A stretch of DNA of 64,000 nucleotides from Octopus sinensis. Lineage: Eukaryota. The stretch is from assembly GCF_006345805.1 (NCBI RefSeq), contig NC_043001.1:104408001-104472000 (forward strand), in the 5' to 3' direction. Positions 1-62,800 of this stretch are shown in pieces. How positions within the stretch are numbered: the stretch's first letter is position 1; every line of letters starts with the position of its first letter. The position numbers are program-made.

Positions 1-3000
1 TAAACAAGCCATGTTGATGGTACTTGCAAACCTGCAGACACTATAGAGAACTAGTAATGCTCCTTGGTAAAAATGCTATGTCAAAGATTACTGGTACTTT
101 TCAAATATCACTGGGCTAAAAGTTCTCAAGAACAGAGCACTTAATTTGTTGCCATTGGTATCCAGAGATTCCTTGAAGAATGTCATCAATTTACCCTGCT
201 ACTAGTTCGTTAGTTCTCTATAAATTACCAATGTAAAAATTCCACCAGTTGCATTATTCAACAGGTGGGTAGCTGTGAGCATTTGACAACATTCCTGATG
301 CCAGGCACTAACTACTGGATGCAGTTTAAAATCATACGCAGAATTTTTAGTTAGATATGAGATTGTATCAAAATATTCATGGACTAGTTCTGCAGTATGC
401 CAACAGATGGCAACACATGACTGCATGCACAGTGACAGCCAGCAATGACTTTTATGAGGCAGTGTGCCAAGTGACATTGCTGTGTTTTCCTCACAAGTTG
501 TGAAAATTGTGTTTTTGTGATCATGCGTATGTTGTAGTCTGCAATTTTTGTCAGGGACAGGAAGTTGGCACAAAGAGCTAATGTGAAATTTTGTGTTGAA
601 CTTGGGAAGTCTGCTACAGAGACTTACAGTGATGGCAAGCTTACAGTGATGGTGAAACAGGCCATGCGCAATGTTTCAAGTGGCACAAGCACTTCTGAAG
701 GGATGACAGAGCTACATCTCAATCAAGAGCATGTTCATCATTTTGTTGATATATATGGTATTGTGCATTGAGAATTTGTCCACCAGGGCTGGACCATTGA
801 GAGTTCTACTGCAACATTTTGAAGCATTTGAGGGAGAACACTTCACACAAGAAACTGGATCAGTAGAGCGTTAAGAATTGGATCCTTCACGACGACAATG
901 CACCCTGTCACTGAGCTCTCCTCACTCGTGTGTGTCCCACCAAAAATTGCTTCTACACCTGCCCCATTGACCAGATTTAGCACCTATGGACTTTATCTCT
1001 TCCCCAAGATGAAAATGCAGGTCAAAGGTCACCGTTTTTGAGATCAAGAGCGAGTTGCAGAAGGTCCTCAAGTTGTTAATGGAAAACGACTTCCAGACTG
1101 GATTCCAAAAGTGGTAGGAATGCTGGGATCAGTGTACTGCAGTGCAAGTTGACTATTTTGAAGAAGGTGATGTTAAAACTTTGGTAAATAAGTTATATTT
1201 TATTAAACATAACTAGTCTGGGAACTCTTTGACACCACCTTGAAAATAGAAATATAATGGTGTAATAAGCTAAAGTAGGACTTACTGAAGTGGAAATACT
1301 GAATATACAATTCATTATCTCTTACATCAACCTTGCTAGGGATTCTCTTGCTATTTTCTGCTTATACATCCTTATATCATTATCATTTATACATCAATGT
1401 CTTCTCATTTAATTAAGAATAAAAATGAAATTTAAAAAAGAAGTTATGAAATTATTTACTTAGCTTCTCTTTTGAGAATACCGTTTGGAAGGTTACGTAT
1501 CTCCTCTGCAAAGTCTCTATATTCCTAGAAAAGTTTACAATAAAAACATTTGTTGTAAATTTATGATAAAAGTTTTGTTTAGGTGTTCAAATTGATGTGG
1601 GCTGGTGTGTGGGGCGAGTTGTGGAGATGAGGAATGAAAATATGTTTCTTGGATTGTGTGAAGTAACTGAACAACACCCACAAACATTTAATAGAAGATT
1701 TTATTGTCACACATTAAGTCAAAACTATGTTAGTCTTTTCCAGATAACAACAGTAATAATTACATATTGGGAGAAAGATACTGCTCAGAGTTTATGGCAA
1801 GCCATTGATACAGTAACATGTGGCTTGCCCAACATAACAAGAAACAATTATGCTATATCCATAGTGACAGAGGTTCCTGCCATCTGATGTGATAAGAATA
1901 GAGACACATCTCACTCAGCTGTGTCAACATTCTGCAATTAATTACTGCTAAAAGAAGCCTTTTTATAAGGCTCAGATTAGCTTCATGCTCTTGCTTGATG
2001 GAGCTGGGGTAATTCCAAGTTAGTGGTCTCAGGGGTGTTATCATGCATACAGCTGTCCAGGTCCACTAGTGCTCTCCATTGTTGGTAGTCCTGTGTATCC
2101 TCTAGGGTGATGTCAAGCCTCTAGAGATCTTCCCCAGTCACATCCAGCCATCTTGTGCGGGGCCTGCCACAAGGCCTCTTCCAGCCCACAGTTGTTGTGT
2201 CAAATGAGACTAAAGCTCTGATAGGATGATCTAGTGGGAGATGGAGGACATGTCTGTACCAGTGCATACAATGGATAGCTATGAGGAGAGAGGCTGCAGA
2301 CTAATGCATGCACACATGCAGTTCTTTGCTGTATATGTGATGGTACCATCAGATGTTCTCAATGGTTCTCAGGGCTCTGCAACTAGAGCTGTTGATCCTA
2401 TTTGCTAGGGTCTTTGAGAGAGGCCACATTTCTGCTTCATAGAGGGGAGTGGAGAGAAGACAGAATCACGTAATGACTTGACAGTAATTGGTTGCTTAAT
2501 AGATCAATCATGTGAAATAATTATGATTCAGTCATAGTGTCTGACTGGGTATCCAGAAATTTGGTTTCAAATCCCTGGCAGAAAAAAAAAGCAATGAGTT
2601 GACATTAATAGTTCTATTTTCGATTGCTTTGGACTATTCAATGAAAGTAAACATTATCTAACTTACAGAAACACTTCAGTTGTTTTGCTTCTTGATGTCC
2701 ATAATAACACCAAGTGTGGCATGTTAGATTCAAAAGAAGACAGGGAAGGAATACAAAAATAATTCCAGAATGTATTGTTTCAAACAACTATGTGGGTTAC
2801 GAAAACTAAAATAATCATTTTCAACATTAACTGGCACTTTGTTGGTAATAATAAGGGTTCCAGTTGATCTGATCAATGGAAACAGCCTGGTTGTGAAATT
2901 AATGTGCAAGTGGCTGAGCACTCCACAGCCACGTGTACCCTTATCGTAGTTCTCAGGGAGATTGAGCATGACACAGAATGTGACAAGGCTGGCCCTTTAA

Positions 3001-59800: not shown

Positions 59801-62800
59801 TATTAAAAGTTGCATAACCAGGACTACATCACAGTCTTCTCATGATTCAAAGTCAAAATCAAAATTAAGCAGAATGTAATATAATCACTTACTTGGCTTC
59901 GACAAGTCCAAAACCTTCACTGACTACCCTTCTAAAATCTTCATATTCCTAGAAAAGGTAACAAAAAAAGCATTTGTAGTAACTAAAAACAATGATTTGA
60001 CATTAATAATTCTATTTTGGACTGGTTTCGACTCTTCAATGAAACAAAACATTACCTTATTCACAGAAACACTTTAAAAAAAGCAAATCCTTTTGTCTAT
60101 AAATGTTAACCTCCAGTAAAGAGCTGAAATCATTGACTGATGGGGGATATTACCTAAATTGAGAAGTGATACACTAAAGGGATGTGACATAATACTACAA
60201 GGCATTTCATCTTGCACTGTCAACTGATTTTGATATTCCTTTCTTAAAAAAAGATTCTATGCTGTTACTAAAAGATAGCAGCAAATATCTCCCTTAAATC
60301 TTGCAAAAAACTAAAAGATGTGGCTGTGTGGTAAGTCTATTAGTTATTTATTATATGTTGTCTTCTGAGACATGAAAAGATGAAAAAGCTATGTTGACCT
60401 AAGCATGATTTTGAACTCATAAATTCAAGAAAGGTGTTATGCTGTTGTGTGATTGCTTCATCGACTATCATCTTTAAAATGTACATAAGTTTTGCAAAAG
60501 GGGTGGGTTAGTTTCCTTTTTCATTTGGTAGAGCTGTTTGTTGTTTGACCTCAACATCTGAAGGAATAAACAAATGGATGGAGAGGAAACTGTTGATTTG
60601 GTCCAAATGCATGAAGGTGAGAGAATTCATGCTAAAGGCACCCAAGAAGCAGATGGGGGTGTTAAACTGGGTGGCATGTAAAGCCTGTAGCCAGTTTCCT
60701 GATAAAGCAAAGAGGAGTTTGATGAAAACCAAACAGCTATCCATCTTAAGTCCATCTTGTGTCCATATGAATGAAAATAATGAGCTGTAGATTGGAAAGG
60801 AAATCACCATCATCATAGTTTTACCATCCACATTTTATAGCTTTCATAGATCTAGCAGAATTCATTCACATAGATATTTTTTCATTGTAAGGATTTAACA
60901 TGTTTGTTTGGTCTTTAGACTCCCATGGAAAGACAATTGGAGCTAAACAAAAATAAGTGTAATAGTAAAAACAACAGCCAAAAAAATAACAATCAATGCT
61001 GCTGCTGAAGCTACTGGTGGTGCGAGTGCCACTGCTGCTGCTACACCCCACCCCACCAATTTTTTTAAAAAAAAGAGGACCCTAGTAATTCACCTTCAAA
61101 AACAAAACAATGATAAATCTTAACATGACTGTTAAGGGCTCTGGCTTGAGATAAAACAGATGAGAGATACCAAGCCTGTGGTTAAGGTGCTTGTCTGTTT
61201 CAACTCACAGAGCTACACAAACTCAATATGCTGCCTTGTACAAAATAAATAAATATTAAGAACTTACATTGCTATCTCCACAATATTTTTCTGCTAGATT
61301 TCTGTAAAAGAAATAAAGGAATACACTTCATCATGACTACCATCATTAACATCATGATCATGATCATCATTTTTATATCTCTAGACAAAGAAAAACATCA
61401 TAAAATTATAACTTTATGTACAACTTCATCTTCAGACATGAATTCTCTTTTAATATTGGAACCTACATATGGACTTCATTTCAATTACTTCAATTTCTGA
61501 ACCATATTACATGTTTTATTCCTGGCTTAATGCATGGTTCCATACCATTAATATTTTAGCAAATATTTACAAATATTGGTTTCAAATTTTGGCACAAGGC
61601 CGGCAATGACAACTAGTACTTATTTTATCAAACCTGAAACGAAGGAAGGCAAAGGTGACCTTGGTGAGATATGAACTCAGAATGTGAAGATGGACAAAAT
61701 GCCGCTAAGCACTTTGCCTGGCATAGTAACGATTCTACCAGCTCACCACCATAGCAAACACAGAAATATTGAACTGATGTCACTACTTGCCTTACTAATT
61801 GCATTATTGGTAAGACGTATATGTCCTGATACTTTGATTCTCATGAGTTTCCCACTTTGGAATTACGAAATCTTCATTCCATAGCATTATATTAATTCAT
61901 TTCTCACTCCATATGTATTAAAATGTTTATTCTATCATTAAGGCTTTTCAATATTCTTCCATCCCAACCTTTAGAACCTCACAGTGTTTCATGTACAAGG
62001 CCCTCCATAAATGCACGGCATGTTATAAATGCAGTTTTAATGTTCCAAATGAAACAATGCAGATGGAGAAGTATAAAAAAACATTTTCATCTCAAAAGAT
62101 GAAGTTAATAATCTGAAAAATTCATAATCACATCTGCAATAACCCATTTCAGGTATTTACAAGAGTGTAATAGGTGCTTTTGCAAGCCACCAGAACGGCT
62201 GCCATTTATGCAACACTGGAGTGCATTTATGTGCCAATTTGCATGATACCGGTGTTTGCCACGACTGTGATTTTTCTCGGATTGCTCAAACACAACATAA
62301 GGCCAAAGGTCTTGGACATACCTTTATCTGATCAGGATAAAATATTGTGATTGACTTGAGGTGCATGTAGGGCCAAGAACTAACCTCACAGAGTCTGAAG
62401 TCATAGAAGTGATTAAAGCACTCAAACGTTGCAAGACAGAAGAAATGGGTGAAATTTCACCTGAGATGTTAAGAAAATTAAAAAGAGAAGGTATTCTCAG
62501 GTTGATTTGTGTATAACAGGTGGCATGGACTTCTGAAAGGACACCAAAACAATGGCAATTTGGGGTGATGATCCCAATTTTTAAAAAAGGGAGAGAAAAT
62601 TGAAGGAAACAAATGTTTGGACTAGGAATTCCTTGCTTTGTATATGTATTATTCCTTGTTTCTGTTCTGGGTTGATATAAAAACTATGAAAGTTACATGA
62701 CTAGGAATTATTCAAATTGAAATAGTAGTAGTAGTAGTAGTAGTAGTAGTAATAGTAGGCATGGTGGTGCAGCATCTGTGTTGGCTGTACAGACCCACAT

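What the first reader, a model, noticed from the sequence alone, without database searches (positions are those of the whole stretch)
1460..61301. Hidden minus-strand gene built from 18 alternating micro-exons (34 nt + 56-65 nt) encoding an unrecognised helical tandem-repeat protein
Seen in sequence: nine exons of exactly 34 nt (phase 2 to 0) strictly alternate with nine exons of 56/59/62/65 nt (phase 0 to 2). All length variation is in multiples of 3. All 36 splice sites are canonical, and the 287-codon splice product has no stop across ~60 kb of transposon-filled introns. The repeat consensus is x-x-L-[AV]-[EK]-x-[YH]-[FCL]-[GK]-x-x-x | x-Y-x-[DE]-[FL]-x-x-x-[LIVM]-x-x-[LY]-P. The Tyr at position 2 of the long exon is present in all 9. 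Every exon is too short to be listed in its own reading frame by the six-frame ORF track. Inference: this is a functional, probably lineage-specific repeat protein whose N- and C-terminal domains lie outside the window.
Basis: partly seen in the sequence, partly recalled or inferred. Interest (0 to 1): 0.92.

Follow-up and report, generated by a model that had tools for sequence, protein, structure and literature searches.

The report
Annotated octopus micro-exon repeat gene
The 18 tiny exons are real and form the middle of an already annotated but uncharacterised octopus gene for a long repeat protein whose exons differ from one another far more than the introns beside them.

Summary
Nine 34-nt exons alternate with nine of 56/59/62/65 nt on the minus strand. 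All have AG/GT borders, and they total 864 nt, or 287 full codons. The gene is not hidden from annotation. All 18 exon peptides, compared one by one, occur once each, in order and contiguously, at residues 961-1249 of the 1935-aa RefSeq protein "uncharacterized protein LOC115212235 [Octopus sinensis]". That protein has four N-terminal UBA-like domains, about 31-33 copies of a 30-33-aa repeat that matches no Pfam family or PDB sequence, an unassigned region of about 220 aa, and an Ala/Glu/Lys-rich tail. The genomic unit is a four-exon super-repeat, duplicated in tandem. Paralogous exons are only about 58-65% identical, while their flanking introns are about 76-90% identical. Relatives are scarce. 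Named relatives are models from two other Octopus species, and five further unnamed sequence clusters turned up among 1.84 billion proteins. The fold and function remain inferred. My best guess is a modular helical scaffold.

The parts
61268..61301 (-). S1, 34-nt exon (odd class); P0001 residues 962-972
59893..59948 (-). B1, 56-nt exon (odd class); P0001 973-990
58187..58220 (-). S2, 34-nt exon (even class); P0001 992-1002
54680..54738 (-). B2, 59-nt exon (even class); P0001 1003-1021
43624..43657 (-). S3, 34-nt exon (odd); P0001 1023-1033
41935..41999 (-). B3, 65-nt exon (odd); P0001 1034-1054
40839..40872 (-). S4, 34-nt exon (even); P0001 1056-1066
37933..37991 (-). B4, 59-nt exon (even); P0001 1067-1085
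32304..32337 (-). S5, 34-nt exon (odd); P0001 1087-1097
30658..30722 (-). B5, 65-nt exon (odd); P0001 1098-1118
28291..28324 (-). S6, 34-nt exon (even); P0001 1120-1130
24414..24475 (-). B6, 62-nt exon (even); P0001 1131-1150
21944..21977 (-). S7, 34-nt exon (odd); P0001 1152-1162
20970..21034 (-). B7, 65-nt exon (odd); P0001 1163-1183
20206..20239 (-). S8, 34-nt exon (even); P0001 1185-1195
15456..15517 (-). B8, 62-nt exon (even); P0001 1196-1215. A LINE insertion lies about 40 nt upstream of its acceptor.
4035..4068 (-). S9, 34-nt exon (odd, most diverged copy); P0001 1217-1227
1460..1524 (-). B9, 65-nt exon (odd); P0001 1228-1248

Best explanation
The 18 micro-exons are genuine, serially spliced coding exons from the middle of an annotated Octopus sinensis gene, LOC115212235. 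They encode 9 of roughly 31-33 repeats of 30-33 aa in a 1935-aa protein.

Shown here:
- The short exon carries an L-A-x-x-Y/H-F segment.
- The long exon carries Y-x-x-F/L-x-x-x-[LIVM], a loop of variable length that often holds Pro, and the start of the next repeat.
- All length change sits in that loop, in steps of 3 nt.
- The genomic and evolutionary unit is a four-exon, two-repeat super-repeat (S-odd, B-odd, S-even, B-even; about 64 aa). It multiplied by tandem segmental duplication, and LINEs later swelled the introns.
- After duplication the exons kept frame, length class, splice sites and about seven core aromatic or aliphatic positions. Otherwise they diverged to about 58-65% nucleotide identity, while neighbouring intron sequence stayed about 76-90% identical.

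Inferred:
- Each repeat forms a pair of short helices, and the array forms a long modular helical rod or scaffold.
- That scaffold sits behind four N-terminal UBA-like protein-binding modules.
- The fast exon divergence reflects pressure for neighbouring repeats to differ, either to avoid inter-repeat misfolding or to offer distinct binding faces.

I put about 0.95 on 'real exons of this gene', about 0.8 on the four-exon duplication history, and about 0.4 on the helical-scaffold function.
For: - All 18 of 18 exon peptides are exact, unique, ordered and contiguous in P0001, and 8 of 8 split codons agree. In the O. vulgaris model, 14 of 18 are exact.
- All 36 splice sites are canonical.
- The odd and even exon classes have distinct conserved intron flanks. 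Super-units are colinear over kilobases at 74-95% identity.
- An HMM built from the 9 units finds 31 units in P0001 residues 383-1442.
- Pfam UBA_4 (E 3e-8) and UBA_8 (E 7e-7) both score above their cut-offs, and four UBA-like copies align.
- The O. bimaculoides orthologue P0005 aligns to P0001 1139-1345 with no gap at 68.6% identity. Core positions are conserved in 18 of 21 cases against 44 of 75 elsewhere.
- Exon against intron identity is 57.9% against 76.0% and 77.3% over 32 pairs. It is 60.0% against 90.6% and 86.0% in the nearest 25 nt over 24 pairs. Exon divergence exceeds flank divergence in 9 of 9 closest pairs, with Fisher p<0.05 in 6 of 9.
- Codon positions 1 and 2 differ more than position 3: 0.469, 0.381 and 0.352.
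- The distant relatives P0010 and P0011 show the same Y-F...Y..F...L period and the same two-type alternation.
- The AF2 model of P0005 is mostly helical.
- The abstract of PMC4660218, seen in the listing, states that neighbouring homologous tandem domains have divergent sequences, probably to avoid misfolding.
Against: - I could see no RNA evidence. The three species' proteins are computational gene models.
- Both structure models are of low confidence (pLDDT 44.8 and 38.6), so 'helical rod' is weak.
- Pooled dN/dS among paralogous exons is 0.94. That fits near-neutral drift at most positions as well as it fits diversifying selection.
- Synonymous divergence (0.60) is also about 3.7 times the intron divergence (0.16). 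A simple model of recent duplication plus selection on amino acids does not explain this.
- The pairs share exons, and the exons are very short, so these statistics are pseudo-replicated and noisy.
- No function of the UBA-like domains or of the repeats has been tested.
Confidence: 0.85

Rival explanations
1. The duplications are old and the exons drift almost neutrally. The intron flanks look young only because selection for recognition of very short exons, or gene conversion, keeps them alike. On this reading there is no diversifying selection.
For: - Pooled dN/dS is 0.94, and dS (0.60) is as high as dN (0.57).
- In global alignments, identity falls from 90.6% and 86.0% next to the exon to about 55-60% at 200-300 nt.
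- The two-type alternation is shared with relatives of only 25-31% identity, so the basic module is old.
Against: - Inside colinear BLAST matches, intron identity stays flat at about 85-96% out to 700 nt, while the embedded exons are at 65.1%.
- S4/S6 and B3/B7 have 3-7% flank divergence against 35% in the exon.
- Selection would have to hold hundreds of intron bases.
- Conversion tracts would have to skip 34-65-nt exons each time.
Confidence: 0.3
2. The exon pairs are cassettes. Every short+long pair adds 90-99 nt and keeps the frame, so splicing could vary the number and choice of repeats. The 18-exon chain would then be only one isoform.
For: - All pair lengths are multiples of 3.
- The O. 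vulgaris model differs from P0001 by one clean 129-aa (four-repeat) block.
- The O. bimaculoides model P0006 passes from the unit before S1 straight to B4-like sequence, which is 8 exons fewer.
Against: - Both differences can equally be copy-number change, assembly collapse or model error.
- The RefSeq model uses all 18 exons in series.
- No transcript data were available.
Confidence: 0.2
3. The chain is a chance or dead arrangement of pseudo-exons in duplicated non-coding DNA.
For: About 140 open AG-34-GT stretches per strand and phase arise by chance. The flanks are duplicated DNA, so similarity alone proves nothing.
Against: - 18 of 18 exons keep frame, splice sites and length class despite 35-45% nucleotide divergence.
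- Indels occur in steps of 3 only within exons.
- The chain matches gene models of three species exactly or nearly so, and the orthologue is gap-free.
- Core positions are conserved.
Confidence: 0.02
4. The repeat is a diverged member of a known helical-hairpin family (TPR/Sel1-like, RIIa/DPY-30-like), or a derivative of the protein's own UBA-like domain.
For: By eye, the spacing of small and aromatic residues in the first helix recalls these families. This resemblance is recalled and comes from no call. hhalign places the short-exon segment on the second helix of the UBA-like copies.
Against: - No such Pfam family appears at E<=10 in P0005, P0006, P0010 or P0011, or at E<=1 in P0001.
- hhalign gives P=0.083 and probability 0.7%.
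- PDB sequence and profile searches found nothing real.
- The Atlas gave no usable hit.
Confidence: 0.1

Closest known systems
RefSeq model 'uncharacterized protein LOC115212235 [Octopus sinensis]' (P0001). Related models: O. vulgaris 'Hypothetical predicted protein' (P0002) and O. bimaculoides LOC106877687, LOC128247888, LOC106881217 and A0A0L8FTR5 (P0003-P0006).
   Same: It is the same gene. 18 of 18 exon peptides are identical to residues 961-1249. The O. vulgaris model is 98% identical. The O. bimaculoides pieces are 62-79% identical.
   Different: Nothing differs in sequence. The public records carry no function, no repeat annotation and no note of the exon architecture. In O. bimaculoides the gene is split into at least four separate models.
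Helical-hairpin tandem repeats such as TPR and Sel1-like (description recalled)
   Same: The period is similar at 30-34 aa. There are two predicted short helices per unit, conserved small and aromatic core positions, and a long array likely to act as a binding scaffold.
   Different: No Pfam match to any such family. The second helix and loop are shorter. Units alternate between two types, giving a super-repeat of about 64 aa.
Modular repeat genes with exon-per-module and super-repeat structure, such as nebulin (recalled, not tested)
   Same: Repeats map regularly onto exons. A higher-order super-repeat is the unit of duplication.
   Different: Here each repeat is split over two micro-exons with a phase-2 and a phase-0 border. 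The sequence family is unrelated, and paralogous exons are more diverged than their introns.
Schistosome micro-exon genes (definition recalled)
   Same: There are many very short exons in a row, and the exons vary more than their surroundings.
   Different: Those exons are symmetric (multiples of 3) and encode secreted proteins. Here the exon lengths are 3n+1 and 3n+2, and only pairs keep the frame. By eye there is no signal peptide at the N-terminus of P0001 (not tested).
Proteins with N-terminal UBA-like domains (Pfam UBA_4 / UBA_8)
   Same: P0001 and P0003 pass the curated cut-offs of both families. Four copies are present.
   Different: These domains lie outside the window. No SEP or UBX domain was detected. 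No other member is known to me with a 33-unit repeat array behind them.

Membership tests
Gene LOC115212235 of Octopus sinensis | Exon translations identical to the protein, in order and contiguous | tested here: met
   18 of 18 peptides are exact and unique at residues 962-1248. 8 of 8 split-codon residues agree.
Gene LOC115212235 of Octopus sinensis | Transcript support for the 17 junctions | not testable with these tools
   No read or transcript collection for octopus was on hand.
UBA-like domain proteins (Pfam UBA_4, UBA_8) | Score above Pfam's gathering cut-off | tested here: met
   P0001: UBA_4 33.8 bits (cut-off 21.8) and UBA_8 29.3 bits (cut-off 26). P0003: 36.8 and 31.8 bits. This applies to residues 1-372, outside the window.
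UBA-like domain (as the origin of the 32-aa repeat) | Significant profile-profile similarity of the repeat to the UBA-like copies | tested here: not met
   hhalign of 8 UBA-like copies against 27 repeat windows gave P=0.083 and probability 0.7%.
TPR / Sel1-like / RIIa-DPY30 helical repeats | Match to a family profile | tested here: not met
   None was listed at E<=10 for P0005, P0006, P0010 or P0011, or at E<=1 for P0001. Single exons also gave none.
SEP-domain (p47-like) adaptors | SEP domain profile match in the region after the repeats | tested here: not met
   A resemblance seen by eye was a recalled lead only. There was no SEP hit at E<=10 in P0004 and no PDB sequence hit. The model was too poor for a fold search.
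Schistosome-type micro-exon genes | Symmetric micro-exons (length a multiple of 3), each removable without frameshift | tested here: not met
   Exon lengths are 34 and 56/59/62/65 nt. None is a multiple of 3. The family's definition is recalled.
Arrays of mutually exclusive alternative exons (Dscam-like) | Only one exon of the array is used per transcript | tested here: not met
   The RefSeq and O. vulgaris models use all 18 in series. Transcript-level use was not testable.

The most novel reading that the evidence does not exclude
The array is an exon-level diversification device. After each duplication of the four-exon unit, the 34-nt and 56-65-nt coding segments are driven apart several-fold faster than the introns around them. 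The cause would be selection for unlike neighbouring repeats, or an exon-targeted, A<->G-biased process connected with cephalopod RNA editing. The frame-neutral exon pairs would then let splicing or copy-number change tune rod length between tissues or species.
Probability: 0.15. Interest if true: 0.7.

Novelty: new member of a known kind. Interest (0 to 1): 0.35.

Why it matters
As a gene, this is already in the public annotation, so the 'hidden gene' claim adds nothing new.

What remains is a large protein family known only from Octopus models. Its roughly 33-unit repeat has no assigned family, fold or function. Its genomic form is unusually regular at two micro-exons per repeat and four per duplicated unit. 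The gene is broken into several models in O. bimaculoides, which shows how such genes defeat annotation.

The contrast between exon and intron divergence is the one feature a specialist might want to follow. If it reflects selection, it would be a clean case of pressure for neighbouring repeats to differ.

Tried and rejected
- **Profile search with the nine long-exon peptides (A1).** I then sent one unbroken window stretch around exon B8 by reference, which found P0001.
- **Pfam on seven single long exons.** No family.
- **PDB sequence search with P0001 and profile search with A3.** Only chance or low-complexity hits, at E 0.59 and 0.23.
- **AlphaFold2 without alignment on P0005 (repeats) and P0004 (post-repeat region).** pLDDT was 44.8 and 38.6. 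I therefore ran no fold search, since poor models give meaningless matches.
- **ESM Atlas for both proteins.** No usable feature hit, and all TM scores were below 0.5.
- **Repeat derived from the UBA-like domain.** hhalign was not significant.
- **SEP-like, TPR-like and RIIa-like readings.** These were recalled leads with no profile support.
- **The listing of cluster members for P0007-P0011.** Switched off, so their organisms stay unknown.
- **Literature.** Zero papers for the five gene and protein identifiers. Nothing relevant for 'octopus' + 'microexon' or for 'cephalopod' / 'tandem repeat protein' / 'novel gene'. One search gave nothing useful.
- **Rfam, tRNA and tandem-repeat scans of the window.** No RNA gene; only simple and SINE-like repeats.
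- **Not used.** Complex prediction (I make no binding claim) and the genome-contig scan (bacteria and archaea only).
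Full report
**Observation.** The window has no N and about 38% G+C. On the minus strand, nine 34-nt exons read as 1 nt plus 11 codons and carry an L-[AV]-[EK]-x-[YH]-[FCL]-[GK] motif. I found them among 140 open AG-34-GT candidates of that phase. Ten candidates scored 4 or more of 6, of which nine are real and one is a decoy. 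The other five strand/phase combinations gave 0-3 such hits.

Nine long exons (56, 59, 65, 59, 65, 62, 65, 62 and 65 nt; phase 0, ending with 2 nt of a split codon) lie one between each pair of short exons. They are 9 of the 22 candidates with Tyr at position 2, out of 637 open candidates. All 36 borders are AG/GT with pyrimidine tracts, and introns are 730-11,387 nt. The exons sum to 864 nt, or 287 full codons. The frames that contain them are only 19-56 aa from stop to stop. Its consensus is approximately right, although the Pro is present in only 5 of 9 copies.

**Identity.** I searched the model exon by exon and left out the joined step. I assembled, searched and folded no spliced product of my own.

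Single exons gave no Pfam hit.
- One unbroken stretch of the window, the open frame around exon B8, found a single protein. This is P0001, 'uncharacterized protein LOC115212235 [Octopus sinensis]', 1935 aa.
- Each of the 18 exon peptides occurs exactly once in P0001, in order and without gaps, at residues 962-1248. The eight residues at split codons agree.
- The O. vulgaris model P0002 holds 14 of 18 peptides exactly.

The window is therefore O. sinensis DNA, and the gene is already annotated. The neighbouring exons of P0001 are not in the window.

**The protein.**

- Pfam finds UBA_4 and UBA_8 above their cut-offs. Four UBA-like copies align at about residues 3-46, 100-143, 180-223 and 329-372.
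- An HMM of the nine units finds 31 units between residues 383 and 1442. By eye, two weak stretches may hold further units.
- After the repeats come about 220 residues with no family, and then an Ala/Glu/Lys-rich tail (by eye).
- No Pfam family covers the repeats or the post-repeat region, even at E<=10.
- PDB sequence and profile searches gave only chance hits.

**Genomic anatomy.** The flanking introns fall into two classes for the short exons and two for the long ones, alternating odd and even. The duplicated unit is therefore four exons encoding two repeats (about 64 aa). Four and a half such units lie in the window. They are colinear over kilobases at 74-95% identity, interrupted by insertions. 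The introns carry LINE ORFs with endonuclease, reverse transcriptase and PHD domains. No extra or decayed exon copies were seen.

**Exon and intron divergence.**

- Over 32 same-class pairs, exons are 57.9% identical. The 150-nt flanks are 76.0% and 77.3% identical.
- Over 24 pairs of units 1-4, the nearest 25 nt are 90.6% and 86.0% identical against 60.0% for exons.
- Within colinear BLAST matches, intron identity is flat at about 85-96% out to 700 nt, with falling coverage. The embedded exons are at 65.1%.
- In nine closest pairs the exon is the more diverged part in 9 of 9, with Fisher p<0.05 in 6 of 9.
- Codon positions 1 and 2 differ more than position 3.

Pooled dN/dS is 0.94, and dS is itself about 3.7 times the intron divergence. 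Among codons that keep the same amino acid, 24 of 94 differ. Amino-acid selection alone does not account for the pattern, and this stays unexplained. The pairs are not independent and the exons are tiny, so the numbers are rough.

**Relatives.**

- Among proteins of 1064-3387 aa, only P0001 and the O. vulgaris model matched the N-terminal region.
- Among shorter proteins, only four O. bimaculoides models matched. These are pieces of the same gene.
- A full HMMER pass with P0003 over 1.84 billion representatives gave six proteins at E<=0.001. They are P0001 and five nameless ones. Two of these, P0010 and P0011, are repeat arrays of 25-31% identity with the same period and the same two-type alternation. 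Their organisms could not be looked up.
- Between O. sinensis and O. bimaculoides, the N-terminal 380 residues are 82.1% identical. The repeats are 68.6-75.5% identical and the post-repeat region 73.1%.
- The orthologue of exons B6-B9 has no gap. It conserves the core positions in 18 of 21 cases, against 44 of 75 elsewhere.
- The O. vulgaris model has one extra 129-aa block after residue 829 of P0001. An O. bimaculoides model lacks the equivalent of eight exons. Whether these are copy-number changes, isoforms or model errors cannot be told here.

**Fold and function.** Single-sequence AlphaFold2 models were poor, though the repeat model is mostly helical with helices at the two conserved segments. 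The Atlas gave no lead, and I ran no fold search on such models.

My best reading is inferred rather than shown. I take the protein to be a long modular helical scaffold behind UBA-like binding modules, in which neighbouring repeats are kept unlike. That last idea is in line with the abstract of PMC4660218 (listing only).

**Rival readings.**

- Old duplications with intron flanks held alike by splicing constraint or gene conversion.
- Cassette use of frame-neutral exon pairs.
- Hidden membership of a known helical-repeat family, which profiles do not support.

**Literature.** No paper in the library holds any of the gene or protein identifiers. Supplements were closed and might still list them.

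Noticed in passing
window 15557-18581 (LINE ORFs 15564-17291 and 17292-18026, + strand): A LINE insertion splits the conserved upstream flank of exon B8 only about 40 nt before its acceptor. The matching flank of B4 and B6 resumes at 18581-18947. A similar insertion of about 1 kb sits between 2584 and 1572, about 35-50 nt upstream of exon B9.
   Followed up: partly
window 10473-13769, minus strand: An uninterrupted 1098-aa LINE ORF with endonuclease, reverse transcriptase and PHD finger lies in the same orientation as the gene, inside the 11.4-kb intron between B8 and S9. It may be a young element.
   Followed up: no
the 18 exons (nine closest paralogous pairs): Differences between paralogous exons are biased to A<->G on the sense strand: 71 of 168, against 18 for C<->T. 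In the flanks the counts are 63 and 39 of 229. Exon purine content of 62.5% would predict only about 1.7 to 1. The cause could be amino-acid preference (Lys/Glu/Arg/Gly/Asp/Asn swaps) or a link to RNA editing.
   Followed up: partly
P0002 residues 842-970; P0006: The O. vulgaris model carries a clean 129-aa (four-repeat) insertion relative to O. sinensis, outside the window. An O. bimaculoides model lacks the equivalent of eight exons that lie in and just before the window. The array length may vary between species or isoforms.
   Followed up: partly
window 8335-8766 and 9937-10389: Tandem arrays of 67-nt and 159-nt units share a GC-rich core, next to long AT dinucleotide runs at 7450-8170 and 9381-9643. 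They are probably parts of a SINE-like or composite repeat.
   Followed up: no
window 34808-35893 (-), 49699-50361 (-), 202-675 (-), 9821-10396 (+): Open frames of 157-361 aa with no Pfam family. The one at 202-675 lies downstream of B9 on the gene's strand but matches nothing in P0001.
   Followed up: partly
short-exon donors: Seven of the nine 34-nt exons have the donor GTTAGT (T at +3) rather than GTRAGT. All long exons have GTAAGT or GTAAAT. This may matter for recognition of the 34-nt exons.
   Followed up: no
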